DNA from: an uncultured Candidatus Saccharibacteria bacterium
GTDB taxonomy: Bacteria; Patescibacteriota; Minisyncoccia; RBG-13-40-8-A
Reading direction: 5' to 3'
Assembly: GCA_965231075.1 (NCBI GenBank)
Contig: OZ246412.1
Span: 170,019-234,018 of the forward strand
DNA: 64,000 bases
Below the pieces are notes generated by a model. The model was not told where the DNA came from. It did not search any database and worked only from the letters and a program-made list of their open reading frames with translations. Of this stretch, positions 20,706 through 42,739 are shown piece after piece; positions within the stretch are counted from its first letter, which is position 1; every line of letters starts with the position of its first letter. A program made the position numbers and the translations under genes.

Positions 20706-20921
20706 ATGTGCTTGAGTGTTCCGGTTAAAATATTAGAAATAAAAAACAAAAAAGCCGTTGTTGAAATAAGTGGCAATAAGCAGGAAGTGGGGATTGACTT
20801 AATTCCCGAAATAAGAGAGAATGATTATTGTCTGATTAGCAACGGTTTTGTTGTTAAAAAAATATCAGTCGAAGAGGCCGAAAAGATCTTTAATATATTA
20901 AAACTCGACAGCATTAATTAA
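20706..20921 (+). CDS. hypC: [NiFe]-hydrogenase maturation chaperone HypC/HupF (71 aa). I prefer the internal start at MCLSVP over the track start at 20670.
   Basis: MCLSVPVKILEI... with the essential Cys2, followed by the HypC beta-barrel pattern and C-terminal EEAEKIFNIL. Using 20706 removes the overlap with the preceding gene. Confidence 0.8.
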   Translation: MCLSVPVKILEIKNKKAVVEISGNKQEVGIDLIPEIRENDYCLISNGFVVKKISVEEAEKIFNILKLDSIN

Positions 20922-20948
20922 TACCAAAAGAAATCTTAAGGAGGAAAT

Positions 20949-21335
20949 ATGAACAAAACAAATATCAACAGTGACGCACTAGAGCTAACCAACAAGTTCA
21001 CGAAAGGTGCACCGTGTCCTATCAACAAGAACATGGAAGAAACAATGTTTTGGCCATTTTACGAAAAAATTGCCAAAGACAGTGGATTCGACGAGATTAC
21101 TGTTGAGGTTGTGAAAGAATACTGGTTCACGGTACACAACCGACTTGTTGTAAAAAGATTTCATGCTGGTCATCTTGATCGGGAAAAAGCAATCAACTGT
21201 ATGGTACGCGCCATTAAAATTGAAAATAGTCAACTGGCGTGTATTCACGGTGGATTCATCGTCTGCGACATTAGTGAAGATGAATTCAGAAACCTAATCG
21301 AAAAAAACAGGCCCTTGATTGACGAGATCGGTTAG
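20949..21335 (+). CDS. Hypothetical 128-aa Cys/His-containing protein within the hydrogenase locus
   Basis: A strong AAGGAGG Shine-Dalgarno sits 5 nt upstream. Cys at APCPIN, NCMVRA, LACIHGGFIVCDIS. No known family recognised. Confidence 0.45.
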   Translation: MNKTNINSDALELTNKFTKGAPCPINKNMEETMFWPFYEKIAKDSGFDEITVEVVKEYWFTVHNRLVVKRFHAGHLDREKAINCMVRAIKIENSQLACIHGGFIVCDISEDEFRNLIEKNRPLIDEIG

Positions 21336-21366
21336 GGCGTGCGTTAATTTGCGCGCCCTATTTTTA
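21334..21366 (+). terminator. Rho-independent terminator after the hypC/hypothetical pair
   Basis: AGGGCGTGCG-TTAATTT-GCGCGCCCT hairpin followed by TTTTT. Confidence 0.7.
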
Positions 21367-21370
21367 TTTA

Positions 21371-21379
21371 TGTTATAAT
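21371..21379 (+). promoter_or_regulatory. Extended -10 element TGtTATAAT. The hydrogenase small-subunit ATG is 7 nt downstream, so the mRNA is leaderless.
   Basis: TGTTATAAT at 21371-21379, ATG at 21386. There is no obvious -35. Confidence 0.5.
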
Positions 21380-21385
21380 TTATTC

Positions 21386-22153
21386 ATGGTTAAAATCAAA
21401 CGAAAACCAGTAATTGCAATTTTGTCATTAACTTGTTGTGAAGGATGTCAAGTTGCGATTTTTGATTTAGGGGAAAGGTTTTTGGAATTTTTAACCAAAG
21501 TAAATATCGGTGATTTCCAATTAGCAGAAGAACTTCCTGATGTAAAAAAATATGATATTGCCATTGTTGAAGGTACAGCAATTACGAAAGCACAAATTAG
21601 AAGATTAAAGGAAGTTAGAAAGAAATCTAAAATATTAATCGCCATTGGTGCTTGTGCATTACTTGGAGGGCCACAAGAATTAAAAGATTATCGTGGCGAT
21701 AAAAACAAACTTATTAGACAAATTTATCCCAATGTTCGGGGGATTGATAATCCTAATGTAAAATCGGTCAAAGAAATGGTCAAAGTGGATTATGAAATTC
21801 CAGGTTGTCCAATAAACAAAGAAGAATTTTTTACAATCATCAATAAAATTTTAGAAAACAAAAAACCAAAAATTGAACAAAAACCAGTTTGTGAAGAATG
21901 CGTTAGAAAAAATAAGATGTGTTTATTGTTGTTAGGCAAACCATGTTTAGGGGCGATAACCCTGGCTGGTTGTGGCGCACCGTGTCCCAGAAGTGGTTTT
22001 ATGTGTGATGGATGTAGAGGACCGAAACAAAAAATTAATTTAAACGCAATGAAAAAAGCACTGAGAATTAAGGCACGATTAACTGACAACGAAATCGATA
22101 TGATTTTAGAAAGGTTCGGTAAGTGTAATGAATTAAAAAAAGCAAATTTATGA
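21386..22153 (+). CDS. [NiFe]-hydrogenase small (Fe-S) subunit, group 3/F420-nonreducing-like (255 aa)
   Basis: N-terminal proximal-cluster region (AILSLTCCEGCQ) and a C-terminal Cys-rich region (CEECVRKNKMC...CLGAITLAGCGAPCPRSGFMCDGCRGP). NuoB/hydrogenase-small fold. Confidence 0.8.
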   Translation: MVKIKRKPVIAILSLTCCEGCQVAIFDLGERFLEFLTKVNIGDFQLAEELPDVKKYDIAIVEGTAITKAQIRRLKEVRKKSKILIAIGACALLGGPQELKDYRGDKNKLIRQIYPNVRGIDNPNVKSVKEMVKVDYEIPGCPINKEEFFTIINKILENKKPKIEQKPVCEECVRKNKMCLLLLGKPCLGAITLAGCGAPCPRSGFMCDGCRGPKQKINLNAMKKALRIKARLTDNEIDMILERFGKCNELKKANL

Positions 22154-23406
22154 AATTAAGAATAGATCATATTGCGAAAATTGAAGGACATGCGAGTTTT
22201 ACCGCTGACATTGTTGACGGTGATGTTAGAGCGGCAAAAATTAAAATTGAAGAAGGAGCGAGATTATTTGAGGGTATTATGCAAGGCAGAAAGGACGAAG
22301 AAATCGCCGAGATTGGCTCAAGGATTTGTGGGGTGTGCCCAGTTGCTCATGTTTTTGCGGGTTTCAAAGCAATTGAAAACGCATATAAAATAGAGGTTAC
22401 TGAACCGGTATTGTCATTGAGAAAATTGATGTCTTTGGGGCAATTAATTAATAGTCACGCATTGCATTTATTTTTCTTTTCTTTGTCTGATTTTTTTGGA
22501 TTCAAAAGCGATTTAGAATTAGTGAATGCGTATCCTGAAAAAACTCACGATGCCGTGAAAATCAGAGACATTGGTAATAGATTAGTAGAAATTATTGGCG
22601 GAAGATCAATTCACCCCCTAACTCCTTGTATCGGCGGAATGAGAAAATCACCAGACACAAGCGAATTAAAGCAACTTTTAATTGATTGTCAGAATAATTT
22701 AGAATTAACTATAAAATTAGGTGAATTATTTATTAATCTAAAATATCCCGATTTTCATCGTCAAACAACTTTTGTTTCTCTTTACAATCCCAACGAATAT
22801 GCGATCTACGACGGACAAATTAAAGTTGATAAAATCGTGATGAAACCAGAAAATTTTATATCTTTACTTAAAGAAGTTCAAAAGGGTAATGATGTTGCTA
22901 AAAGAACGTCCTTTGCGGGTAAAAGTTATATGGTTGGAGCATTGGCAAGAATAAACAATCATCGAGAACAACTAAACCCACATGCCAAAGAATTATTAGA
23001 AAAATCTAAATTAAAATTTCCTTGTTATAATCCGTTTTACAATATTATGTGTCAAGCGATTGAATTAGTGCACTGTTTTGAGGAGGCAATCAAAATTTTG
23101 AATAAATTAATCAATCAAAAAATCGTTGTTTCGGAACCAAGGATAGAAAACACAAGTGGAACAGGAATTGGAATTGTCGAGGCGCCCAGAGGCATATTAT
23201 TTTATGGCACAGAAATAAAAGATAAAATTGTTAAGGGTATGGAAATTGTTTCGCCAACTTGTCAAAACCTTACCAACTTAGAGGCAGATTTAGAAGAATT
23301 TGAAAGATTGGGAGGATTTAAGAATTTAGATAAAAAAGAAAAAGAAGATAAGATTAAAATGTTAATTCGCGCATATGATCCTTGCGTAACTTGCGCAGTA
23401 CACTAA
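22150..23406 (+). CDS. [NiFe]-hydrogenase large (catalytic) subunit, 418 aa. It ends exactly at the C-terminal metal-binding motif with no cleavable extension.
   Basis: L1 motif RICGVCPVAH near the N-terminus and L2 motif DPCVTCAVH as the last 9 residues before the stop. Confidence 0.85.
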   Translation: MKLRIDHIAKIEGHASFTADIVDGDVRAAKIKIEEGARLFEGIMQGRKDEEIAEIGSRICGVCPVAHVFAGFKAIENAYKIEVTEPVLSLRKLMSLGQLINSHALHLFFFSLSDFFGFKSDLELVNAYPEKTHDAVKIRDIGNRLVEIIGGRSIHPLTPCIGGMRKSPDTSELKQLLIDCQNNLELTIKLGELFINLKYPDFHRQTTFVSLYNPNEYAIYDGQIKVDKIVMKPENFISLLKEVQKGNDVAKRTSFAGKSYMVGALARINNHREQLNPHAKELLEKSKLKFPCYNPFYNIMCQAIELVHCFEEAIKILNKLINQKIVVSEPRIENTSGTGIGIVEAPRGILFYGTEIKDKIVKGMEIVSPTCQNLTNLEADLEEFERLGGFKNLDKKEKEDKIKMLIRAYDPCVTCAVH

Positions 23407-23410
23407 TTTT

Positions 23411-24196
23411 ATGATTACAGATAGCCATACACATATTTACGACGAAGAAAAATATAAAAGTTATTTAAAAAGAGCGAAAGGGATGATATCAAAAATTATA
23501 GTTATGCATTGGCCAAAGTTTGATTTAGAAAAATTACTAAATTTTACGACCGCAAAAAACAATTTATATGTTGTAGGCAGCATAGACACCGAAAAGGAAA
23601 TAAAGGAACAACTAGAAGTACACGAAAGATTGTTTAAAGAAAAAAGAATATTTGGGATTAAAATTTATCCTGGTTATCAATATTTTTATCCATCAGACGA
23701 AAAAGTGTATGCAATTGCGGAATTGTGTCAAAAATACAACAAACCACTAATAATCCATTCTGGGGATGTTTATAATCCAGACAAAACAGCACTATTAAAA
23801 TACTCCCATCCGCTTTACATAGACGAATTAGCAGGAAAATTTCCTAATTGCAAAATCATTATTTCGCATTTCGGCTTTCCTTATTATATGGAAACAGCCA
23901 ACATTGTTTCAAAAAATAAAAACGTTTACACAGACATATCTGGGACAATAGACAAACAAAATACCAAAAAAAAAGAAAAAGCGATATTTAATCAATATAT
24001 GCGAGACATAGAAAGGGTGTTTGCATATTTCCCAAGCATTAAAGAAAAGATAATGTTCGGTACTGATTATGGCGGAGAAGATACGCCATTGTGTGAAGTT
24101 AGTCCATATATAAAGATTGTTAATGCCGTTTTTTCAAGAAAGGATCAAGATGTGGTTTTACATAAACTTGTAGAAAAATTATTTTTTACTGATTAA
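23411..24196 (+). CDS. Amidohydrolase-2 / TIM-barrel metal-dependent hydrolase family protein (261 aa)
   Basis: DSHTHI N-terminal metal ligands, IIHSG, SHFG and GTDYG motifs. It sits between the hydrogenase large subunit and the hypA-like gene. Confidence 0.6.
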   Translation: MITDSHTHIYDEEKYKSYLKRAKGMISKIIVMHWPKFDLEKLLNFTTAKNNLYVVGSIDTEKEIKEQLEVHERLFKEKRIFGIKIYPGYQYFYPSDEKVYAIAELCQKYNKPLIIHSGDVYNPDKTALLKYSHPLYIDELAGKFPNCKIIISHFGFPYYMETANIVSKNKNVYTDISGTIDKQNTKKKEKAIFNQYMRDIERVFAYFPSIKEKIMFGTDYGGEDTPLCEVSPYIKIVNAVFSRKDQDVVLHKLVEKLFFTD

Positions 24197-24199
24197 TTT

Positions 24200-24451
24200 A
24201 TGCACGACATGCATCTTGCGCAACAAATCATTAAAACCGTTCTCGAATACGCAGATAAGAATGGTTTTAAAAAAATTAAAAAAATCGAACTGGAATTAGG
24301 TTCGATTTTGGAGCATGACGAAGTAATTTCTCCAGAAAATTTAATTTTTAATTTTAATTTACTTTCCAAAAACACTATCGCCGAAAATGCAGAACTAAAC
24401 ATCAAACAAATAGCAGGGGATAATTGGAAATTAGTGGCTATTGAAGAGTAG
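24200..24451 (+). CDS. hypA: HypA-like nickel-insertion protein, N-terminal domain only (83 aa). The CxxC...CxxC zinc finger is absent.
   Basis: MHDMHLAQQIIKTVLEYADKNGFKKIKKIELELGSI...AENAELNIKQIAG follows the HypA N-terminal pattern (MHE motif for Ni) and stops where the zinc-finger domain normally begins. There are no Cys residues. Confidence 0.55.
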   Translation: MHDMHLAQQIIKTVLEYADKNGFKKIKKIELELGSILEHDEVISPENLIFNFNLLSKNTIAENAELNIKQIAGDNWKLVAIEE

Positions 24452-27542: not shown

Positions 27543-28133
27543 ATGAACAAAAAAAGATTATTTGTGGCGATTAATTTGCCAGAAGCGATCAAAAATAAAC
27601 TTTTTGATTGGGAATTGAAGTTAGAAAAAGAATACGAGCTTGGTGAATTTCGTGGCAAAAACATTAATTGGGTAATTAAAAAAAACTTACACATTACTCT
27701 GGTTTTTATTGGCTACGCCACCGATGACGAAACTTATGAAATCGCCAAAATCATAAAAACCATTGCCAAGAATCATCAACAATTTTTTGTTAATTTAGAA
27801 AGAATTATTTTGGGGCCACCAGACGGAAGCGCAAGAATGTTTTGGGCAGAGGGAGAAAAAAGCCAGGAATTGGCGGAATTACAATTTGATTTAGAAAAAT
27901 CGCTAGACATTGGCGATAATCCACAAAAGCAAGCTCGCGCCTTTAGGCCACATGTTACTTTGGCAAGATTAAAGTCAAGTGTTAGTGAGATAATTAAAAA
28001 GAAGGGGATAATCGAGAAGAAAATAAATTATCAAATTCCGGTTGAAAGCATTGAATTAATGCAATCTACTCTTGGTCGTTCTGGACCAGAATACACAACA
28101 TTAGAATTAGTAGAATTGGGAAATGAAGAATAG
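27543..28133 (+). CDS. thpR: RNA 2-prime,3-prime-cyclic phosphodiesterase / 2-prime-5-prime RNA ligase (2H phosphoesterase, LigT/ThpR)
   Basis: Two H-x-T/S-x motifs (HITLVF, HVTLAR) at the expected spacing. Confidence 0.8.
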   Translation: MNKKRLFVAINLPEAIKNKLFDWELKLEKEYELGEFRGKNINWVIKKNLHITLVFIGYATDDETYEIAKIIKTIAKNHQQFFVNLERIILGPPDGSARMFWAEGEKSQELAELQFDLEKSLDIGDNPQKQARAFRPHVTLARLKSSVSEIIKKKGIIEKKINYQIPVESIELMQSTLGRSGPEYTTLELVELGNEE

Positions 28134-29148
28134 TTATGATGTTATTATTATTGGTGCGGGGATTGCGGGACTAGAATGTGCCAAGCATTTAGCGGGTTCT
28201 GGTCTGAGTATTTTGATAGTTGAAAAAAACAATAGTCCTGGATCTAAGGTTTGTGCCGAGGGGGTTGTATTACAGGACCTGAAATACGTTTCAAAAGAAG
28301 ATTTGAATTTTGATTTTCAAAAATTAATTTTTCACTACAAAAATAAAACCAAAGCATTTCCAGATAATGACGGCATTATATCGACAATAAATAGAAAAAC
28401 ACACATTAAACGAAAAATAGATCAACTTAAAAAAATTGATAATATAGAGTTTTTAATTGGTAATAGTGTTGCCAAAATTGTTGCGGGAAACTCTCTAGAA
28501 TTGAGCAGTGGTGAAATTATCAGATTTAAATATTTGGTTGGTGCAGATGGCTCAATTTCGGTTGTCAGAAAATATTTAAATTTACCATCAGAAAAAATTG
28601 AAATTGCGATGCAATATATTTTGCCTAAAAAATTCAATGATTTTGAAATTTATCTGGATAGCAAAAATTTAGGGACTGGATATTTGTGGATTTTTCCGAA
28701 CAAGGATTACGATTCAATCGGGTGTGGTGGAGATTTAAGATACATGAATGTCCAAAAAATGAAAGCATATTTTGAGCTTTGGTTAAAAGAAAAAAATATT
28801 AACTTTTCAAAAGAAAACCTACAAGCAGCTCTTATTAATTATGATTATAGGGGGTATAAATTTAATAATATATTTTTAGCCGGCGATGCTGCAGGGTTGG
28901 CCTCGGGAATATTGGGAAAAGGGATATATTCTGCATTTTTATCTGGAGAGCAAATAGCAAACGAAATTCTAAATAAGCCCGCTAACTATAATCTAATAGA
29001 AAGGTGGTTGAAGAAAAAAAGAAAACAAGAATTTTTTATGGTTTTTATGAAAAATAAAATCATAAGAAATTTGGCGTTTAATTGGGGAATAAAATCAATG
29101 CGTTTTCAAAAAATACAAAAATTGATAATGAGGGGCTTCATAAGATGA
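28123..29148 (+). CDS. FAD-dependent oxidoreductase of the geranylgeranyl reductase family (341 aa)
   Basis: YDVIIIGAGIAGLECA Rossmann motif and GSKVCAEGV (the GGR PxxCGEG-like motif). The stop overlaps the start of the next glycosyltransferase (ATGA). Confidence 0.7.
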   Translation: MKNSYDVIIIGAGIAGLECAKHLAGSGLSILIVEKNNSPGSKVCAEGVVLQDLKYVSKEDLNFDFQKLIFHYKNKTKAFPDNDGIISTINRKTHIKRKIDQLKKIDNIEFLIGNSVAKIVAGNSLELSSGEIIRFKYLVGADGSISVVRKYLNLPSEKIEIAMQYILPKKFNDFEIYLDSKNLGTGYLWIFPNKDYDSIGCGGDLRYMNVQKMKAYFELWLKEKNINFSKENLQAALINYDYRGYKFNNIFLAGDAAGLASGILGKGIYSAFLSGEQIANEILNKPANYNLIERWLKKKRKQEFFMVFMKNKIIRNLAFNWGIKSMRFQKIQKLIMRGFIR

Positions 29149-36786: not shown

Positions 36787-37260
36787 ATGAAAGTCATTTT
36801 ATTAAAAGATATTCAGGGATTGGGGAAAAAAGGAGAAATTAAAAATGCCTCAGATGGGCATGTAAGAAATTTTCTTGTGCCAAAAAAATTAGTTAAGATT
36901 GCTACAGATAAGGCAATTAAAGAGTGGGAACAAGAAAAAGCTATGGAGGCGCAAAAAGCGGAACAAGAATTACAACACGTCGAAGAAGTTGTTTCACAGA
37001 TAGACGGTTTAGAAATAGAGGTTCCAACCAAAATGGACGAATCGGGCAAACTCTATGGTTCAATCAATGATCAAAAAATAAGTCAATTATTTAAAGATAG
37101 AGGATTTGATATTAGAAAAAATCAAATTAAAATTCCCCAACCGATTAAAACGATTGGAGAATATCCAATAACAATTAGCTTTGATCACGGACTAGAAGCA
37201 GAAATCAAACTGATAATCGTTGACGAAGCCCTACTGAAGACTAAATCAGAAGAGAATTAA
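36787..37260 (+). CDS. rplI: 50S ribosomal protein L9
   Basis: [35 protein letters not shown]. Confidence 0.9.
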
Positions 37261-37529
37261 ACAACATCAACGACCTTAAAAGTTTTTTTGTTGCCATCAA
37301 ATCCAGTTTTAGAGGTTGTTCTAAACTTAACAGTTCCCGATTTTACAGCATACAAAGTATCGTCTTTGCCTTTTCGAACGTTCTTACCGGCAATAAATCT
37401 TGTGCCTCTTTGGCGAATTATAATACTACCAATTTGAGCTTTTTGCCCCTGGTATAATTTTACGCCTAGATATTTTGGTTGCGAGTCTCGTCCTAGTTTA
37501 GTCGATCCCGCGGATTTAGTTGTTGACAT
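37257..37529 (-). CDS. rpmA: 50S ribosomal protein L27
   Basis: [29 protein letters not shown]...[10 protein letters not shown]. Confidence 0.95.
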
Positions 37530-37643
37530 AGAATTTTATGTTATCACATTTAAAAGAATATTTCAAGCACAATAGCCATGACATGTTTATTGTCGTGGTT
37601 ATTATTTTAATCGCCCTAATTTTCTTTGGTCTGGGCCGTCTAT

Positions 37644-38741
37644 CTACGCCCTCTTTGTGCTTGCCTTAATTATTGTGTATTTTTTGTTTTCTTTTTTCGC
37701 TTCCGAAAGTTGATCTTGGATTGGTTGGGGGAGGGTTCTGATTATTTTCTCCAGTTTCTCAATATCATAACCACCAACCCTTAATTGTGTTAAACGTGTG
37801 ATAAAACCAGAATCCCCAAATACTCTTTCAATTTTTTCTCGGTCTAAATAATTTTCAATGATATCTTTTAATTCATTGATTTTTTTATTGTTTTGAGTGT
37901 TGTTGTTTTTCAGGTCCAAAAACTGATTAATAACTTTTTTAATTTGTTCGTCATCAATGGTTGTTTCTTTATATAAATGCTTCCACATTGGGCAGATTTT
38001 TTTGTATCCACACCAATCACAAAGCACTGATGGCATTGGTTCAAATTCACTTTTTTCAATCTTCTTTAATTCTTGCCAAACATGTTTTTGCACCTCATTT
38101 AGCTGTTCTTTGGTTCGATGGGTGGAAATTGTCTCTTGGTGCTTTAAATAGTACAGAGTCAATTTAATGTTTTCAATGCCGTTTTCTATAAATTGCGGCC
38201 AGCGATTCATTATTCCTAGGCAATACAAAGACATTTGCATGCTTTTGTGAATATCTTCTTGAGAAGGTAATTTTTTTGTAGTTTTGTAGTCAATAATTTC
38301 AATTCCGGTTTTAGTTTTATCGATTCGATCGATGATCCCCGTTAAAAGACATTTTTCTTCTTTGTTTTCGGGATTTTCCAGTAAAACTTCAAATCTAGTT
38401 TCGGTGCCAAGTACAGAGAAATTATCTTTAATTTTTAAATAATTTTCGTAATAGTTTTTAAGGATTTTTATGGCTTCGGAAAAATAAATCATATCTTCGT
38501 CTCCCTGAAAAACCGTGCTATCCCAAATGGTTTTAAAATGGTTTAGCAACTCGTCCAAAGTAGGGGAGACGGGATTTTGTTTATGGAACCACTCTAATGC
38601 TTCGTGAAGTTTTCCACCAAAAACCGCCTCTTTTGTTTTAGGGGCCTTTATTTTATCGATAACTTGAAATTTATACTTAAGTGGACACTGTTTAAACGTG
38701 TCTAACGCAGAGTATGAAATTCTCAATGTTTTTCGTTCCAT
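37644..38741 (-). CDS. Cas4-like / RecB-family PD-(D/E)XK nuclease with a 4Fe-4S Cys cluster (365 aa), carrying a ~110-aa C-terminal extension
   Basis: N-terminal Cys (FKQCPLKY), GIIDRID...IEIIDYKT (the PD-(D/E)XK motifs) and C-terminal CDWCGYKKIC (C-x2-C-x5-C). Confidence 0.7.
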   Translation of the reverse strand: MERKTLRISYSALDTFKQCPLKYKFQVIDKIKAPKTKEAVFGGKLHEALEWFHKQNPVSPTLDELLNHFKTIWDSTVFQGDEDMIYFSEAIKILKNYYENYLKIKDNFSVLGTETRFEVLLENPENKEEKCLLTGIIDRIDKTKTGIEIIDYKTTKKLPSQEDIHKSMQMSLYCLGIMNRWPQFIENGIENIKLTLYYLKHQETISTHRTKEQLNEVQKHVWQELKKIEKSEFEPMPSVLCDWCGYKKICPMWKHLYKETTIDDEQIKKVINQFLDLKNNNTQNNKKINELKDIIENYLDREKIERVFGDSGFITRLTQLRVGGYDIEKLEKIIRTLPQPIQDQLSEAKKENKKYTIIKASTKRA

Positions 38742-38742
38742 G

Positions 38743-39591
38743 TTATTTTTCTAAAAATTCGATTGCTTTTTTTGCGTCTTTATAGCCAAGATCAAAAGTA
38801 TCGCTAAGATGTTTTTGGTTTGTGTCTAATAAAAAGGTTATAGGGATTTTTTTGGACGGCGTTAAAAGCATGATATTTTTATGTCTTAATGCTTCTTTTT
38901 TGACGAATTCAATTTTTTTAAAATAATCACGCATCAAATTTTCAATATTTTTGGGCAATGCGCGCGAAGCTTGTTCGAATAAAAATTTTACCACACTTCT
39001 TTCCTGATATTTATTTTCTTTATTGTGAACAATTAAAATTTTGTCAAATTTTTTAATAAAACTTGTTTTAAATGGCAATGGTTCGGCGAGTCCACCATCA
39101 AGGTATTTTATGCCATTTATTTTGACCATTGGATATAGTGGAAAAATTGCGGAGGAGGCATTCATTGCTTTAAACAAATTTTTTTCTGTAGGTTTTATAT
39201 ATTTAGCTTTTCCGGTTTTGAAATCGGTTAAAACATATTGTAAATCAACTTTTGAATTAGCTATCTCTCTCGGTTTCGGCTTACAGGTTTTTTTTATGGC
39301 AACGGTTAAATAGTCTAAATCTAAAACATGTCCTTTTTGATAAACATTTTTGAAATCAACTAATTTGTCAGAATCAATATATTGCTTCCAAAGTTTTTCT
39401 AGTCCGTCTGTGGAATTAGAAATAAAAGCGGTTGAATTATAAGCACCCGCAGAAGAACCGATAATTTTATCGAAATAATTGGGTCCAAATTTTTTACAAA
39501 GTCGATGTAAAACCCCAGCACTATAGGCACCTCGTAATCCGCCCGAACCAACAATTAATAATTTTTTTTGTTTTTTTAAATTTTTTCTCAT
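38743..39591 (-). CDS. Patatin-like phospholipase (~282 aa from the internal start MRKNLKK; the track ORF extends to 39684)
   Basis: Oxyanion hole GSGGLRG, nucleophile elbow GSSAG and the catalytic DGG (YLDGGL). A start at 39591 gives an ATGA overlap with the upstream membrane-protein gene. Confidence 0.75.
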   Translation of the reverse strand: MRKNLKKQKKLLIVGSGGLRGAYSAGVLHRLCKKFGPNYFDKIIGSSAGAYNSTAFISNSTDGLEKLWKQYIDSDKLVDFKNVYQKGHVLDLDYLTVAIKKTCKPKPREIANSKVDLQYVLTDFKTGKAKYIKPTEKNLFKAMNASSAIFPLYPMVKINGIKYLDGGLAEPLPFKTSFIKKFDKILIVHNKENKYQERSVVKFLFEQASRALPKNIENLMRDYFKKIEFVKKEALRHKNIMLLTPSKKIPITFLLDTNQKHLSDTFDLGYKDAKKAIEFLEK

Positions 39592-39989
39592 AGAGCCAAG
39601 AATAAAATGTTTAATAATATAATTATTATGTCTACTAATAAGTAAATACGATTTGTTTTGTGTGGTTGTCTTTGGGTGTGCCAAAGACCAATTTTAGAAT
39701 TTCTGAATTTTTTTATTAAAACCAAGGAAGTGTCTACAATCAACCCTCCAACTGCTCCTAATATAGTGCCGAAAGAATATTGGTAATAACAAAGCAAAAT
39801 TAATATTATGGTTGATATTGTCGCGTCTAAAAATATTATTCTGTCTTGACTTTTTTTGTTATTTGGCCAATAATGAGGAACTTTATCAAATATAAAATGC
39901 AATAAAATCCCCGTCAAAAAAGCGATTATTGGGTTTCCGATAATCTTACCAGCGCTTGCGCCAATTAAGGTGTGATTTATGCTTAACAT
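39588..39989 (-). CDS. Hypothetical small membrane protein (133 aa), first gene of the membrane protein-patatin-nuclease operon
   Basis: 3-4 TM helices. It is tightly coupled to the patatin gene. Confidence 0.45.
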   Translation of the reverse strand: MLSINHTLIGASAGKIIGNPIIAFLTGILLHFIFDKVPHYWPNNKKSQDRIIFLDATISTIILILLCYYQYSFGTILGAVGGLIVDTSLVLIKKFRNSKIGLWHTQRQPHKTNRIYLLVDIIIILLNILFLAL

Positions 39990-40020
39990 GTTCTAATTAT
40001 AAATCATTTTTAAATTATAA

Positions 40021-40052
40021 AAAAGCAGGGGAGAGGAGGTCTCTCGCCCTGC
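40021..40052 (-). terminator. Rho-independent terminator (minus strand), paralogous to the one at 40325-40362
   Basis: On the minus strand it reads GCAGGGCGAGAGACCTCCTCTCCCCTGC followed by TTTTTT. Confidence 0.65.
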
Positions 40053-40060
40053 GGGGGTAC

Positions 40061-40258
40061 TCAAATATTCCTTACGACGAGAATGATGGTGTCCGTGAAC
40101 AGCAAGAACTCCGTACAGCCCATCAGAAAAAGTGCACCAGAGATGGCCCTTGTTTTATCGGGCGCGGTGAGTGGGTTAGTGTTTAGCGCTCTGGCACTAG
40201 AGACCATAAACACAACAAACCAAATCCACCAATACCTAAGGATAAATTCCCAAAACAT
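40061..40258 (-). CDS. Possible small hydrophobic protein (65 aa) bracketed by two similar terminators
   Basis: The ORF has two TM-like segments. No homology recognised. Low confidence. Confidence 0.25.
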   Translation of the reverse strand: MFWEFILRYWWIWFVVFMVSSARALNTNPLTAPDKTRAISGALFLMGCTEFLLFTDTIILVVRNI

Positions 40259-40324
40259 ATTATCCTCCTTGAATTAAAAGATAAATTTATCTTAACGCGC
40301 CTAATTGTTTGCGTCAAGGAGAAT

Positions 40325-40362
40325 AAAAAAGCAGGGGAAAGGAAAACCTCTACCCTGCGGGA
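40325..40362 (-). terminator. Rho-independent terminator after xerD (minus strand)
   Basis: AAAAAGCAGGGGAAAGGAAAACCTCTACCCTGCGGG on plus. On minus it is a hairpin followed by TTTTT. Confidence 0.65.
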
Positions 40363-40390
40363 AGATTCAGAATCTGCGTTGTTTATTATT

Positions 40391-41362
40391 TTATTCCTTT
40401 AGTTTTTTTCCACTATGAAATTGGCGGTGGATGTCGCGGAGGTGTTTGTTGGTGACGTGAGTGTAGATTTGAGTTGTGGCGACGCTTTGATGACCAAGAA
40501 TCTCTTGAACTGTTCTTAGATCTGCTCCTTGGTTTAGTAAATCGGTCGCTAATGTATGACGTAAAACGTGTGGAGTAACTTTTATTGGCAATCCCGCAAG
40601 ATGCGAATATTTTTCTACCATTCTTTCAATCGAACGCACAGTAAGTCGAGAAGGGGAGAGATCGCTCTCTTTCTTGGGTCGATAATTAATAAATAGTGCT
40701 TTGTCGTCATCATTTCTTGTATCTAAATAATGTTTTAACCACCGCACAGCTCTTTCGGAAAAATAAACCGTTCTAACATGTCCGCCTTTTCCCGTGATGC
40801 TTAATTCCACATCTTTGGTGTCAGGTTTTATTTTAAATTGATTTCTATTTAAAGCAACTAACTCGGCAATACGCAATCCAGTAGAGAAGAGGATTTCCAA
40901 AATTGCTCGATCTCGCATCCCGATATTGTGCGACGTATCGGGGGTTAGCAACAATTTCTCAACTTGGTCTAATGTTAAGAACTTTACAGTTTGTTCGCTT
41001 TTTTCTCGTTTGGCTAATTTAATTTTATCAACTGGTAATGATTGAATGTCTCGATCAGTAAAAAAAGTTAATAAATTTCTTAAGGCAATTAAGTAATAAT
41101 TTTGTGTCTTCTTGGTTAGAGTTTTAGGAGAAGTGTCTGAAATAGGTGAGCGGGCCAAAAAGATTCGATACTGCCAGATATGTTCGGACGTCAGTTCGTG
41201 GGGCTTTAAATCTTCATTTTTGGTTGTTTTTAACCAATTGGTAAACTTGTGTAAGTACCGGGCGTAGTTTTCTTGAGTTTTTGATGCCGCACCACGTTCA
41301 ATTTCTAAATACTCAAGAAAATCAGATATATGTTTTATTATGGGAATATTAGATGTCTTCAT
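40391..41362 (-). CDS. xerD: Tyrosine site-specific recombinase, XerC/XerD-like
   Basis: N-terminal SAM-like domain and the C-terminal catalytic region HVLRHTLATDLLNQGADLRTVQEILGHQSVATTQIYTHV, which contains R, HxxR and the Y nucleophile. Confidence 0.85.
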   Translation of the reverse strand: MKTSNIPIIKHISDFLEYLEIERGAASKTQENYARYLHKFTNWLKTTKNEDLKPHELTSEHIWQYRIFLARSPISDTSPKTLTKKTQNYYLIALRNLLTFFTDRDIQSLPVDKIKLAKREKSEQTVKFLTLDQVEKLLLTPDTSHNIGMRDRAILEILFSTGLRIAELVALNRNQFKIKPDTKDVELSITGKGGHVRTVYFSERAVRWLKHYLDTRNDDDKALFINYRPKKESDLSPSRLTVRSIERMVEKYSHLAGLPIKVTPHVLRHTLATDLLNQGADLRTVQEILGHQSVATTQIYTHVTNKHLRDIHRQFHSGKKLKE

Positions 41363-41515
41363 AATCTTTAAAAAATAGTTATAGGGGAGAAGTGCTCGGA
41401 TAAAACCCCCTCTATATAGTCGCTTAACTATGATTGTGCGTCGTTATACTTATATATAACAATGCCCTTTGGCACTCTCTCCTCTTCTATGATTATATAA
41501 TATCTTTAATTAAAA

Positions 41516-42739
41516 TTATTGTAAATATTTTTGTGGATCTAGGTGTGCACCAATTGGCACTGTACCATACCATGTTTTTTGTATTTGAACTGACTCGGAC
41601 GTGTAAACCCCAAAATGCACGTGTGCCCCGGTCGAATATCCCGTGCTCCCCTCATATCCAATAATATCGCCTCTTTTAACCTCGTCTCCGGCCTTAAAGC
41701 TGCCATATCCGGACATGTGGCCATATAAAGTGGTTAGTTTGTTGTCATGTTCTACCATTATCCATTTGCCGTAAGCATACTTGCCACAGTTCCCTATCGC
41801 CAAAATTTTTCCATCACGAGCCGACTTGATTGGCGTTCCATACTTGGTAGATATATCTATGCCATTATGGAACCCGCTTTTATACATTCTCTTGCTAAAG
41901 GCGGTATAACCATATCCTTGAGTTAAAACCCCTTCCATGGGCCAACTAAGGGCCCCAGGACGTGCTTCTACAGAGTTTGGATCAATGGTGGCCTGTATTT
42001 TGTCTTCTAGGTCGAAAATCTGTTGCTCTACCTCTTGTTGTTTTCGAAGGGTGTCATTTAGTAGTGTTTGATATTGCTTTTCTTGTCCTTTGGTTTGAGT
42101 CAAAAGATAATTCTTTTCTTGTTTCTCGCTGTCAATGATTGACTTTTGGTTAGAAAGTTGATTTCTTAATGATGCTAATTGATTTTTTTGAATCTCGGCA
42201 CTAGTTTTTTGTGTTTCCATCTCTCTTTTAATATTTTGAAGGTTGGTGATATTATTCTGGATGCTTTTTTGGATTGATTCCATGTAATGTATTTGGTTTA
42301 CAAAATCAGAAAGATTGTCCTGAGTTAAAACAATTTCCATTAACGATTCCTTATCGTATTCGGCCATGACCTGCAGCAAATCAGAAATTTCTTTTCTTTT
42401 CTTATCAATTTCATCTTGTTTAAGGTCAATGTCTAATGCTAAGGATTCAATTCTTAATGATGTTGCAGAAATTTTACTAGTGGTTACCGAAATATCCCCT
42501 TGAAGCGCTTTAATTCTACTGGCAATAATTGCTAACTGATTATTAAGCGTGTTTTTTTGCGACTGCGTACTTGTTAATTCTTTTTGATATTCGGCTGCTT
42601 GTGCTTCAAGTTGTTTAATTTCTGCCTCTTTTTGATTGATTTGGGCCTGTAAATCGTCAACAAGGCTAGCCGAAGATGGGCTTGGTAATAACCAGCAACC
42701 AAGAAATAAGATACAAATTATAAGTATTGTTTTTCTCAT
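41516..42739 (-). CDS. M23-family metallopeptidase with a long N-terminal coiled coil (EnvC/NlpD-like murein hydrolase or activator)
   Basis: Signal peptide, a ~250-aa heptad-rich coiled coil, and a C-terminal LytM domain (HNGIDIS...HVHFGVY). Confidence 0.8.
   Translation of the reverse strand: MRKTILIICILFLGCWLLPSPSSASLVDDLQAQINQKEAEIKQLEAQAAEYQKELTSTQSQKNTLNNQLAIIASRIKALQGDISVTTSKISATSLRIESLALDIDLKQDEIDKKRKEISDLLQVMAEYDKESLMEIVLTQDNLSDFVNQIHYMESIQKSIQNNITNLQNIKREMETQKTSAEIQKNQLASLRNQLSNQKSIIDSEKQEKNYLLTQTKGQEKQYQTLLNDTLRKQQEVEQQIFDLEDKIQATIDPNSVEARPGALSWPMEGVLTQGYGYTAFSKRMYKSGFHNGIDISTKYGTPIKSARDGKILAIGNCGKYAYGKWIMVEHDNKLTTLYGHMSGYGSFKAGDEVKRGDIIGYEGSTGYSTGAHVHFGVYTSESVQIQKTWYGTVPIGAHLDPQKYLQ

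What the first reader, a model, noticed from the sequence alone, without database searches (positions are those of the whole stretch)
20706..24451. Compact two-subunit [NiFe]-hydrogenase locus with a minimal maturation set in a reduced genome
The locus has hypC (MCLSVP...), an unknown 128-aa Cys/His protein, a small subunit, a large subunit with a perfect RxCGxCxxxH motif, an Amidohydro_2 hydrolase and a HypA N-domain remnant without a zinc finger. The large subunit ends exactly at DPCVTCAVH, so no C-terminal peptide needs a HycI/HyaD-type endopeptidase. That is typical of sensory or Ech-type enzymes rather than group 3 enzymes. There is no diaphorase (FAD/NAD) or F420 subunit and no hypB, hypD, hypE or hypF in 64 kb. 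The 128-aa protein and the amidohydrolase are candidates for new accessory functions.
Basis: partly seen in the sequence, partly recalled or inferred. Interest (0 to 1): 0.65.

Follow-up and report, generated by a model that had tools for sequence, protein, structure and literature searches.

The report
Protease-free two-subunit CPR [NiFe]-hydrogenase locus
This is an intact two-subunit nickel-iron hydrogenase of the kind already known from ultra-small (CPR/Patescibacteria) bacteria; what is new is its helper set: no trimming protease, a nickel chaperone without its zinc finger, and a shrunken member of an unstudied HypC-like helper family.

Summary
All six ORFs and both motifs are real (20706-24451, + strand). 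The large and small subunits match group 3b sulfhydrogenase alpha/delta best and belong to the CPR-specific 3b clade of Jaffe et al. 2020 ('hyd1'-like, 255-aa small subunit).

Ending at DPCxxCxxH is a clade rule: 118/118 full-length close homologues and 42 fetched loci lack an extension. None has a HycI protease of its own nearby. Of 82 large subunits with an extension, 69 have HycI nearby.

The 'HypA remnant' is a conserved mini-HypA with only the zinc-finger segment cut out. The 128-aa protein probably derives from DUF6390 (PF19927), an unstudied family with a HypC-like C-terminal domain. DUF6390 sits in [NiFe]-hydrogenase loci next to a HypC that lacks His51, usually with an EamA transporter. 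The amidohydrolase occurs only in this genome and is probably a passenger.

The window and five related loci (L003, L004, L085, L096, L171) lack beta/gamma diaphorase genes nearby. By NJ tree, the first five form one subclade, sister to four-subunit loci.

No hypB/D/E/F, hycI, beta or gamma gene lies in the 64 kb. The rest of the genome could not be searched. This is a new variant of a known kind, of moderate interest.

The parts
20706..20921 (+). HypC-type chaperone (71 aa). It keeps Cys2 (MCLSVP) but lacks the conserved His51; the motif reads CLISNGFVV where canonical HypC has VHVGFA.
   Evidence: PF01455 E 3.7e-19 and TIGR00074 E 6.3e-15. The alignment of 80 HypC sequences shows His51 where HypD is adjacent and loss of His51 in most HypC that sit beside DUF6390.
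20949..21335 (+). 128-aa Cys/His protein, probably a reduced derivative of DUF6390 (PF19927). It has an N-terminal helical part plus a minimal HypC-like beta/helix end. C23, H63, C84 and H100 are invariant.
   Evidence: No Pfam hit. The family is small: 13 hits in 1.8 billion representatives, two of them repeat proteins I set aside as probably spurious. It occupies the DUF6390 slot between hypC and the structural genes. hhalign against DUF6390 gives 89.8%, E 1.8e-6, over the C-terminal 38 columns. The match to HypC is weak (24-40%). The AF2 model has pLDDT 92 and finds no significant solved fold.
21333..21360 (+). GC-rich hairpin followed by a T-run, between the 128-aa gene and the small-subunit gene. 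It looks like a terminator or attenuator.
   Evidence: 11-bp stem with 7 GC pairs, then TTTTTATTTA. RNA fold -22.8 kcal/mol, z -3.4, 0 of 200 shuffles as stable. Function not tested.
21386..22153 (+). [NiFe]-hydrogenase small (delta) subunit, 255 aa, with the cysteines for three FeS clusters.
   Evidence: PF01058 E 5.7e-24; NCBIfam ShyD 3.3e-44 and HydD 2.7e-40. The best solved relative is P. furiosus sulfhydrogenase 1 delta, 9e15_A, E 1.8e-35, with the cluster cysteines aligned.
22150..23406 (+). [NiFe]-hydrogenase large (alpha) subunit, 418 aa. L1 is RICGVCPVAH and L2 is DPCVTCAVH at the exact C-terminus. The KIEGH and EAPRG motifs are present.
   Evidence: NCBIfam HydA 7.5e-76 and ShyA 1.8e-75. 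PDB: 9e1j_B sulfhydrogenase 1 alpha E 9.4e-71 and T. kodakarensis HyhL 5yxy_A 4.9e-65, against the group 3c enzyme Mvh at 2.3e-46. Stop codon TAA. 118/118 full-length close homologues end the same way.
23411..24196 (+). Amidohydro_2 / TatD-like metal hydrolase, 261 aa. It is inserted between the large subunit and hypA and is probably a passenger gene.
   Evidence: PF04909 E 2.7e-21. The only solved relative is 3irs_A, an uncharacterised protein, E 1.6e-7. It is a singleton at 90% identity. It is absent from L003, L004, L085, L171 and every other locus.
24200..24451 (+). Mini-HypA (83 aa): the nickel-binding domain with an MHD start and the C-terminal strand. The roughly 33-aa zinc-finger segment with both CxxC pairs is missing, and there is an extra EH(G/D)E insert.
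   Evidence: PF01155 E 3.2e-13 and TIGR00100 2.1e-13. Best PDB match is T. kodakarensis HypA 3a43, residues 1-68. Alignment A5 against canonical HypA shows the clean excision. HypA from 16 CPR loci has 0 CxxC; 14 of the 15 canonical HypA have 2 and one has 3.

Best explanation
The locus encodes a functional cytoplasmic [NiFe]-hydrogenase catalytic dimer (small/delta plus large/alpha). It belongs to the CPR-specific branch of group 3b and sits in a sublineage that has lost the adjacent beta/gamma diaphorase module.

Proposed maturation, by a streamlined protease-free route:
1. The Fe(CN)2CO unit is handed to the large subunit by the co-encoded HypC variant (Cys2 kept, His51 lost), working with the 128-aa protein.
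2. The 128-aa protein is a shrunken DUF6390. That family has a HypC-like domain that keeps both the Cys and the His, plus further conserved Cys and His residues.
3. Nickel is delivered by a zinc-finger-less HypA.
4. Because the large subunit is made already 'processed', the active site closes without HycI-type cleavage, as it does in regulatory and Ech/CooH hydrogenases.
5. Electrons leave or enter through the three FeS clusters of the small subunit to a partner that is not encoded beside it. This is most likely a soluble ferredoxin-type carrier, or beta/gamma encoded elsewhere, and it would let a fermentative CPR cell dispose of or take up reductant as H2.

The amidohydrolase is a lineage-specific insertion in the operon and not part of the system.

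Shown: gene identities, motif conservation, the clade-wide link between a missing extension and a missing protease, the zinc-less HypA, the linkage of DUF6390 with HypC, EamA and hydrogenase genes, and the absence of other hyp and diaphorase genes from the 64 kb.

Inferred: that the enzyme is active, the roles of the HypC variant and the 128-aa protein, the electron partner, and that HypD/E/F exist elsewhere in the genome.
For: Classification: the best NCBIfam and PDB matches for both subunits are the P. furiosus and T. kodakarensis group 3b alpha/delta subunits. The 120 closest large subunits are 54-92% identical; every one a source named by taxon is Patescibacteria/Portnoybacteria.

Active site: C60, C63, C412, C415, E12, R347 and H418 are invariant across 32 aligned relatives.

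No extension: 118/118 full-length close homologues and 42 large subunits in fetched loci end at the terminal His. 41 of the 42 have no HycI within 9 kb. The exception, L078, is a distant second hydrogenase beside a normal 3b operon. Of 82 large subunits with a 7-28 aa extension, 69 have HycI nearby.

Mini-HypA: it is conserved directly downstream of the large subunit in 16 CPR loci.

DUF6390:
- In 81 loci it sits with EamA (66), HypC (44), the large subunit (42) and the small subunit (41).
- Its C-terminal domain aligns to HypC at 88.7-91% probability, with Cys on Cys2 and His on His51.
- C22, H126, H127, H130, C153 and H211 are 88-100% conserved in 84 full-length sequences.

128-aa protein: same slot as DUF6390, and hhalign gives 89.8%.

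Subclade: window, L085, L004, L003 and L096 form one NJ clade without beta/gamma, sister to four-subunit loci. L171 has the same layout.

CPR hydrogenases of this extension-less type do use Hyp proteins: hypC-hypD-hypE plus a HypF C-domain lie beside them in L006, L007, L009 and L169.
Against: - No HypB/D/E/F, ferredoxin-type CxxCxxCxxxC motif or diaphorase is encoded in 64 kb, and the other roughly 560 kb of the genome could not be searched. Cofactor synthesis and the electron partner are therefore unproven.
- The link between the 128-aa protein and DUF6390 rests on a 38-column profile match, shared motifs and position. The Pfam DUF6390 model and my local DUF6390 HMM do not hit it.
- There are no expression or activity data.
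- The NJ tree is a rough distance tree without support values.
Confidence: 0.65

Rival explanations
1. It is an ordinary four-subunit group 3b NAD(P)-linked (sulf)hydrogenase whose beta/gamma genes, hypDEF and hypB are simply encoded elsewhere in the genome. The locus looks minimal only because the operon is fragmented.
For: The sister clade and many other CPR loci carry beta/gamma directly upstream. The small subunit keeps all three FeS clusters that wire to beta in P. furiosus SH1. Jaffe et al. 2020 attributed missing beta/gamma to genome incompleteness or to lineage-specific loss.
Against: Six syntenic loci of the subclade lack beta/gamma nearby: the window across 64 kb, and L003, L004, L085, L096 and L171 within the flank each contig allows. 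Where present, beta/gamma always sit next to the structural genes. Neither absence nor presence elsewhere could be tested.
Confidence: 0.2
2. This lineage lacks HypD/E/F altogether. Either the hydrogenase is a non-catalytic relic, or its Fe(CN)2CO unit is obtained another way, for example from the host or through a DUF6390-type scaffold that replaces HypD.
For: No hypD/E/F in the window. HypD and HypE were never seen within 8 kb of DUF6390 in 81 loci. The neighbouring HypC has lost His51; I recall from the E. coli literature, not checked here, that this residue matters in the HypC-HypD complex. CPR genomes are reduced and their owners often depend on a host.
Against: All catalytic residues and the accessory genes are conserved across 54-92% identical relatives, which argues against a relic. 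DUF6390 also occurs beside hypF or hypB and hycI in high-GC non-CPR loci (L144, L147, L153), so it is an addition to the Hyp pathway rather than a replacement. DUF6390 shows no profile similarity to HypD (probability 0.6%). Other CPR extension-less hydrogenases sit next to hypCDE.
Confidence: 0.1
3. It is an H2 sensor or an Ech-type enzyme, as the missing C-terminal peptide suggested to the first reader.
For: Known extension-less enzymes are the sensory hydrogenases (groups 2b/2d) and groups 4c/4e/4g (PMC7294309).
Against: Both subunits match group 3b far better than any other group. No histidine kinase, PAS protein or response regulator and no membrane/antiporter subunits are in the locus or in the window.
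Confidence: 0.03

Closest known systems
Group 3b [NiFe]-hydrogenase: P. furiosus sulfhydrogenase I/II and T. kodakarensis Hyh (PDB 9e1j, 9e15, 9nez, 5yxy)
   Same: These are the best sequence matches for both the large and small subunits. They share the L1/L2 cysteines, a cytoplasmic location, a small subunit with the three-cluster cysteine pattern, and a similar length.
   Different: The archaeal precursors are 428 aa and align to the query only up to residue 424, so they carry 4 extra C-terminal residues. Bacterial non-CPR 3b enzymes carry 7-28 extra residues and a HycI protease. Characterised 3b enzymes are alpha-beta-gamma-delta tetramers. Here there is no extension, no protease and no adjacent beta/gamma. 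The L1 motif ends in His here and in Tyr in non-CPR bacterial 3b enzymes.
CPR-specific group 3b clades 'hyd1' and 'hyd2' (Jaffe et al. 2020, PMC7304191); four-subunit Berkelbacteria/Moranbacteria 3b (PMC10811913)
   Same: A Patescibacteria-only clade, a roughly 250-aa small subunit as in hyd1, a HypC-like family in the neighbourhood, and occasional absence of beta/gamma already noted by those authors.
   Different: Term searches of these papers found nothing on maturation or HypA, and DUF6390 occurs in no searchable paper. I did not search them for the EamA gene or for His51. Here the beta/gamma-less state is shown to be a coherent syntenic subclade.
Naturally extension-less [NiFe]-hydrogenases: regulatory RH (groups 2b/2d), CooH (4c), Ech (4e) and group 4g
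   Same: The large subunit is made without a C-terminal peptide and so needs no endopeptidase. Those enzymes still use the Hyp machinery (PMC7294309).
   Different: This enzyme is in a different group (3b-related). The published list in that paper contains no group 3 enzymes.
Hydrogenase-specific HypC paralogues (HybG, HupF, HoxL)
   Same: The stand-alone HypC variant and the HypC-like domain of DUF6390 are extra HypC-fold proteins encoded beside the structural genes. HupF and HoxL likewise act on one specific large subunit (PMC12134894).
   Different: DUF6390 puts the HypC-like domain at the C-terminus of a roughly 150-aa helical domain, so its conserved Cys is internal rather than at residue 2. 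It has an additional CGP Cys and an HHxxH motif. No function has been tested.
Canonical HypA (for example T. kodakarensis 3a43)
   Same: An MH(E/D) amino terminus and the nickel-domain fold elements, matched above the Pfam threshold.
   Different: It lacks the whole zinc-finger domain and gains an EH(G/D)E insert. No hypB is nearby.

Membership tests
[NiFe]-hydrogenase, group 3b | Large subunit with the L1 RxCGxCxxxH and L2 DPCxxCxxH nickel-iron-binding cysteines | tested here: met
   RICGVCPVAH and DPCVTCAVH. The four Cys are invariant in 32 relatives.
[NiFe]-hydrogenase, group 3b | Closest similarity to characterised 3b alpha and delta subunits rather than to 3a, 3c, 3d or groups 1, 2 or 4 | tested here: met
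   HydA/ShyA 7.5e-76 and 1.8e-75, against VhuA 8.4e-42 and FrhA 4.4e-38. PDB SH1 alpha 9.4e-71 against Mvh 2.3e-46. Delta subunit 1.8e-35. HydDB and a maximum-likelihood phylogeny were not available.
[NiFe]-hydrogenase, group 3b | Tetramer with beta (FeS) and gamma (FAD/NAD(P)) diaphorase subunits encoded with the hydrogenase | tested here: not met
   No beta or gamma hit at E <= 10 in the six-frame translation of the 64 kb. Also absent from the fetched parts of L003, L004, L085, L096 and L171. The rest of the genome was not searchable.
[NiFe]-hydrogenase, group 3b | C-terminal extension removed by a HycI/FrxA-type endopeptidase (typical, not strictly defining) | tested here: not met
   The protein ends at His418 followed by TAA. 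No HycI in the window. 41 of 42 extension-less large subunits have no HycI nearby; the exception, L078, is a distant second hydrogenase beside a 3b operon.
CPR 3b-related clade 'hyd1' (Jaffe 2020) | Large subunit in a Patescibacteria-specific clade, with a roughly 250-aa small subunit and a HypC-like neighbour | tested here: met
   The nearest relatives that carry a taxon name are all CPR. It groups inside the extension-less CPR-type clade. The small subunit is 255 aa and hypC is adjacent. Membership in the authors' own tree was not checked.
HypC/HupF (PF01455) | Pfam match above threshold and the N-terminal Met-Cys | tested here: met
   69.1 bits against a 28.5 cutoff; starts MCLSVP.
HypC/HupF (PF01455) | Conserved His51 (VHVGFA motif) | tested here: not met
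   The window has CLISNGFVV. The same loss is seen in most DUF6390-linked HypC, whereas HypC beside HypD keeps the His.
HypA (PF01155) | Nickel domain with the N-terminal MHE motif | tested here: met
   Starts MHD; 50.1 bits against a 28.9 cutoff; aligns to T. kodakarensis HypA residues 1-64.
HypA (PF01155) | Zinc site made of two CxxC pairs | tested here: not met
   0 CxxC. The roughly 33-aa segment is absent in the alignment with canonical HypA.
DUF6390 (PF19927), for the 128-aa protein | Match to the family profile | tested here: inconclusive
   No Pfam hit and no local HMM hit. hhalign gives 89.8%, E 1.8e-6, but only over 38 C-terminal columns. A pairwise BLAST hint covers the VVxxYW motif, E 0.042. 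Longer family members P0124 and P0129 look intermediate.
DUF6390 (PF19927), for the 128-aa protein | Genomic slot between or next to hypC and the hydrogenase structural genes | tested here: met
   DUF6390 occupies this slot in L003, L005, L012, L013, L017, L019, L085 and L171. The 128-aa family occupies it in the window and L004.
Amidohydro_2 (PF04909) | Pfam match above threshold. Metal-ligand motifs read by eye: DSHTH, IHSG, SHFG, GTDY. | tested here: met
   77 bits against a 26.4 cutoff. The motifs are visible in the translation but were not aligned to a structure.
Sensory (2b) or Ech-type (4e) hydrogenase | Sequence affiliation plus partner genes (kinase/regulator, or membrane antiporter-like subunits) | tested here: not met
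   The best matches are 3b. No such partner genes appear in the window annotation.

The most novel reading that the evidence does not exclude
DUF6390, and its 128-aa reduced form here, is an unrecognised [NiFe]-hydrogenase maturation factor. It would be a HypC-like Cys/His scaffold that works with a His51-less HypC and usually an EamA-type transporter. Together with a zinc-less HypA it would define a protease-free maturation route for a whole clade of group 3b enzymes. In the strongest version, the reduced genomes of this subclade build or acquire the Fe(CN)2CO site without HypD/E/F.
Probability: 0.3. Interest if true: 0.75.

Novelty: new variant of a known kind. Interest (0 to 1): 0.5.

Why it matters
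[NiFe]-hydrogenase maturation is usually described as six Hyp proteins plus a protease. The published list of naturally extension-less enzymes (groups 2b/2d, 4c, 4e, 4g) contains no group 3 member.

This locus belongs to a large environmental clade in which three things travel together: a pre-processed large subunit, no protease, and a HypA without its zinc domain. The locus also points to DUF6390, a conserved Cys/His protein with a HypC-like domain. DUF6390 is genetically tied to 3b hydrogenases in CPR and non-CPR bacteria and is not mentioned in any searchable paper.

That gives hydrogenase biochemists a concrete, testable candidate. It also gives people who reconstruct CPR metabolism a reason not to assume an NAD(P)-linked sulfhydrogenase when beta/gamma genes are missing.

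Tried and rejected
1. The first genome-contig scan, using the single large subunit, found nothing usable. It was repeated with alignment A1.
2. To look for hypD on the same genome, I searched the 5.8-billion-protein set with a CPR HypD profile. I then compared the 'longest contig' lengths of those hits with the contig lengths of the hydrogenase hits: 626281, 522900, 552694, 395555 and others. Only 5235 coincided, and that proved to be a different contig. The list is saturated by Moranbacteria-type HypD, so the test is inconclusive.
5. I tested whether DUF6390 could be a cryptic HypD. hhalign gave 0.6% probability, so this was rejected. The comparisons with HypA, HypB, HypE, HypF, HycI, the small subunit, beta and gamma were equally negative and served as controls.
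6. The amidohydrolase as a maturation factor was rejected because it is not conserved.
7. The FAD oxidoreductase at 28123-29148 as a surrogate diaphorase was rejected. It is geranylgeranyl-reductase-like and is absent from the syntenic relatives L003, L004 and L085.
8. Stop-codon recoding as an explanation for the short C-terminus was rejected: the stop is TAA and all three stop codons are in use.
9. Rfam found no RNA family in the window.

Full report
**What is there.** Between 20706 and 24451 the + strand carries six tightly packed intact ORFs:

| Gene | Coordinates | Size | Main evidence |
|---|---|---|---|
| HypC | 20706-20921 | 71 aa | PF01455 E 3.7e-19 |
| Unassigned protein | 20949-21335 | 128 aa | no family hit |
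| Small subunit | 21386-22153 | 255 aa | PF01058 |
| Large subunit | 22150-23406 | 418 aa | PF00374 |
| Amidohydro_2 hydrolase | 23411-24196 | 261 aa | PF04909 E 2.7e-21 |
| HypA-like protein | 24200-24451 | 83 aa | PF01155, profile positions 1-69 of 112 |

The large subunit has RICGVCPVAH, and it ends ...DPCVTCAVH followed directly by TAA. The window uses all three stop codons, so recoding does not explain the short end.

The window comes from a Patescibacteria (CPR) genome. It has about 35% GC, housekeeping neighbours and a closest named relative labelled 'Patescibacteria group bacterium'. The same proteins lie on a 626,281-bp NCBI contig.

**Classification.** Both subunits match the group 3b sulfhydrogenase models best:
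- NCBIfam: HydA 7.5e-76, ShyA 1.8e-75, ShyD 3.3e-44.
- Solved structures, large subunit: P. furiosus SH1 alpha 9e1j_B at 9.4e-71 and T. kodakarensis HyhL 5yxy at 4.9e-65. The group 3c enzyme Mvh scores only 2.3e-46.
- Solved structures, small subunit: SH1 delta 9e15_A at 1.8e-35, with the FeS-cluster cysteines aligned.

The 120 nearest large subunits are 54-92% identical. Every one that a source names by taxon is Patescibacteria or Portnoybacteria.

This is the CPR-specific 3b clade described by Jaffe et al. 2020 (PMC7304191). The roughly 250-aa small subunit and the HypC-like neighbour fit their 'hyd1' type. Those authors already noted that beta/gamma are sometimes not detected. So the enzyme is of a known kind, and it is neither sensory nor Ech-like.

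**The missing C-terminal peptide is a clade rule.**
- All 118 full-length proteins among the 120 closest homologues end at the terminal His.
- In loci fetched from GTDB genomes and JGI metagenomes, 42 large subunits have no extension. 41 of them have no HycI gene within 9 kb. The exception, L078, is a distant second hydrogenase lying beside a normal 3b operon.
- 82 large subunits carry a 7-28 aa extension (typically FLKLKVER...), and 69 of them have a HycI protease gene (PF01750) nearby, usually immediately downstream.
- Non-CPR bacterial 3b enzymes also differ in L1, which reads RICGICPVAY.
- The archaeal precursors are 428 aa and align only up to residue 424, so they carry four extra residues.
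- A review-type passage lists naturally extension-less enzymes as groups 2b/2d, 4c, 4e and 4g. No group 3 enzyme is on that list (PMC7294309).
- A distance tree puts all the extension-less 3b-type sequences in one clade.

**The HypA is not a remnant.**
- In 16 CPR loci the gene just downstream of the large subunit encodes an 80-109 aa ORF of the HypA family.
- It starts MHD and keeps the final GDxWKLxxIE strand. It has no CxxC, and most copies carry an extra EH(G/D)E insert.
- 14 of the 15 canonical HypA from non-CPR loci have two CxxC pairs; one has three.
- The alignment shows a clean excision of the roughly 33-aa zinc-finger segment.
- Zinc-less HypA also occurs beside extension-bearing 3b enzymes in Microbulbifer flavimaris (L082) and in two high-GC metagenome loci. 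It is therefore a wider 3b-associated variant.

**The 128-aa protein and DUF6390.** The 128-aa protein has only about a dozen relatives among 1.8 billion representatives. C23, H63, C84 and H100 are invariant among them.

In related loci the slot between hypC and the structural genes is filled by a 199-260 aa DUF6390 (PF19927) protein. This includes L085, whose large subunit is 92% identical to the window's.

Profile comparison links the two families at 89.8% probability (E 1.8e-6). The match covers only the C-terminal 38 columns. A second shared motif, VV(K/E)(E/A)YW, is visible. Two longer members, P0124 and P0129, look intermediate.

DUF6390 has these properties:
- Its C-terminal roughly 90 residues align to HypC at 88.7-91% probability. 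Its conserved Cys falls on HypC Cys2 and its conserved His on HypC His51. Nine unrelated control families gave 0.1-0.9%.
- In 84 full-length sequences, C22 (CGP), H126, H127 and H130 (HHxxH), C153 and H211 are 88-100% conserved.
- Across 81 loci it sits with an EamA transporter (66), HypC (44), a [NiFe] large subunit (42) and a small subunit (41). HypD and HypE never appeared within 8 kb.
- It also occurs in high-GC non-CPR loci that have hycI, hypF or hypB.
- The HypC next to DUF6390 has usually lost His51, and the window's reads CLISNGFVV. HypC encoded next to HypD keeps His51, including in the Moranbacteria loci.
- The term 'DUF6390' occurs in no searchable paper.

The AF2 model of the 128-aa protein is confident (pLDDT 92). 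It shows four helices, a three-stranded sheet and a C-terminal helix, but it matches no solved fold significantly.

I conclude that the 128-aa protein is probably a reduced DUF6390. I also conclude that DUF6390 with the His-less HypC, often plus EamA, is an uncharacterised accessory module of 3b hydrogenases. Its role is inferred, not shown.

**The amidohydrolase.** It is present only in this genome. It is a singleton at 90% identity and is absent from L003, L004, L085, L171 and all other loci. Its only solved relative is an uncharacterised Amidohydro_2 protein. It looks intact but is best read as a passenger inserted into the operon.

**Two subunits.** The beta subunit (Fer4_22) and gamma subunit (FAD/NAD/2Fe-2S) lie directly upstream in many CPR loci. 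The window, L085, L004, L003 and L096 form one NJ subclade without them, sister to four-subunit loci. L171 has the same layout.

These loci share one gene neighbourhood: a MerR-like gene, a TPR gene, the hydrogenase genes, then fmt, def and priA. This points to a stable, vertically inherited loss.

In the window's 64 kb nothing matches beta, gamma, NuoE/F, [FeFe]-HydA, HycI or HypB/D/E/F at E <= 10. No ferredoxin-type CxxCxxCxxxC motif is present either.

The remaining roughly 560 kb of the genome could not be searched. An attempt to detect hypD on the same contigs through contig-length fingerprints was inconclusive.

Other CPR extension-less, beta/gamma-less loci do carry hypC, hypD, hypE and a HypF C-domain alongside (L006, L007, L009, L169). 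The clade as a whole therefore uses the Hyp pathway.

**Most likely mechanism (inference marked).**
1. A functional delta/alpha hydrogenase receives Fe(CN)2CO through the HypC variant, helped by the DUF6390-derived protein (inferred).
2. It receives nickel from the mini-HypA (inferred from homology).
3. It needs no proteolytic step. This is shown at the sequence and neighbourhood level and has a precedent in RH and Ech enzymes.
4. It exchanges electrons through its three-cluster small subunit with a partner encoded elsewhere, probably ferredoxin or a distant beta/gamma (inferred).

**Rivals.**
- A fragmented but ordinary four-subunit enzyme (0.2).
- A lineage truly without HypDEF (0.1).
- A sensor or Ech-type enzyme (0.03).

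**Verdict.** The hydrogenase type is already known. The protease-free, zinc-less-HypA, DUF6390-linked maturation set and the coherent two-subunit subclade make it a new variant of a known kind, of moderate interest.

Noticed in passing
window 21333-21360 (+): A strong GC-rich hairpin followed by a T-run. It overlaps the stop codon of the 128-aa gene and lies 25 nt upstream of the small-subunit start. RNA fold -22.8 kcal/mol, z -3.4. It may be a terminator or attenuator that separates hypC and the 128-aa gene from the structural genes.
   Followed up: partly
window about 37000-42000: Cumulative GC skew peaks here, and gene orientation switches from mostly + to mostly -. A phage-integrase/XerC-like recombinase gene lies at 40391-41362. 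This looks like the replication terminus region.
   Followed up: no
L009 7839-9050 (-); L169 11994-13151 (-); also L006 and L007: The CPR HypF proteins next to these hydrogenases are only 370-450 aa and match just the Kae1-like C-terminal domains (PF17788, PF22521). No match to the N-terminal part of the roughly 750-aa HypF seen in non-CPR loci was reported.
   Followed up: no
L082 11664-12035 (Microbulbifer flavimaris); L131; L165: Zinc-finger-less HypA-like proteins also occur beside extension-bearing, HycI-linked group 3b hydrogenases outside the CPR, including in a cultured gammaproteobacterium.
   Followed up: partly
L005, L013, L018, L087, L089, L090, L094 (downstream of hypA); L006, L009, L011 (upstream): A NuoF-like gene (Complex1_51K, 300-415 aa) recurs next to CPR 3b loci. 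In Moranbacteria loci it sits with a NuoE-like gene and an [FeFe]-hydrogenase-like gene. None of these is in the window.
   Followed up: no
L003 7741-8331; L171 491-1084: A PF04308 'RNaseH_like' (former DUF458) gene sits directly upstream of hypC in two loci of the window's subclade. It is absent from the window.
   Followed up: no
L007 11283-11657; L011; L015; L169 15851-16225: A desulfoferrodoxin (superoxide reductase) gene is inserted between the large subunit and the mini-hypA in Moranbacteria-type loci. This suggests oxygen protection of the enzyme.
   Followed up: no
window 28123-29148 (+): A 341-aa FAD-dependent oxidoreductase with a weak geranylgeranyl-reductase catalytic-domain match lies 3.7 kb downstream of the hydrogenase. 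It is found only in this genome and not in the syntenic relatives L003, L004 and L085.
   Followed up: partly
P0130 (391 aa) and P0134 (409 aa): Two highly repetitive proteins surfaced as weak hits to the 128-aa protein (tandem units of about 65 and 50 aa). They are probably spurious or unrelated repeat proteins and were left out of the family alignment.
   Followed up: no
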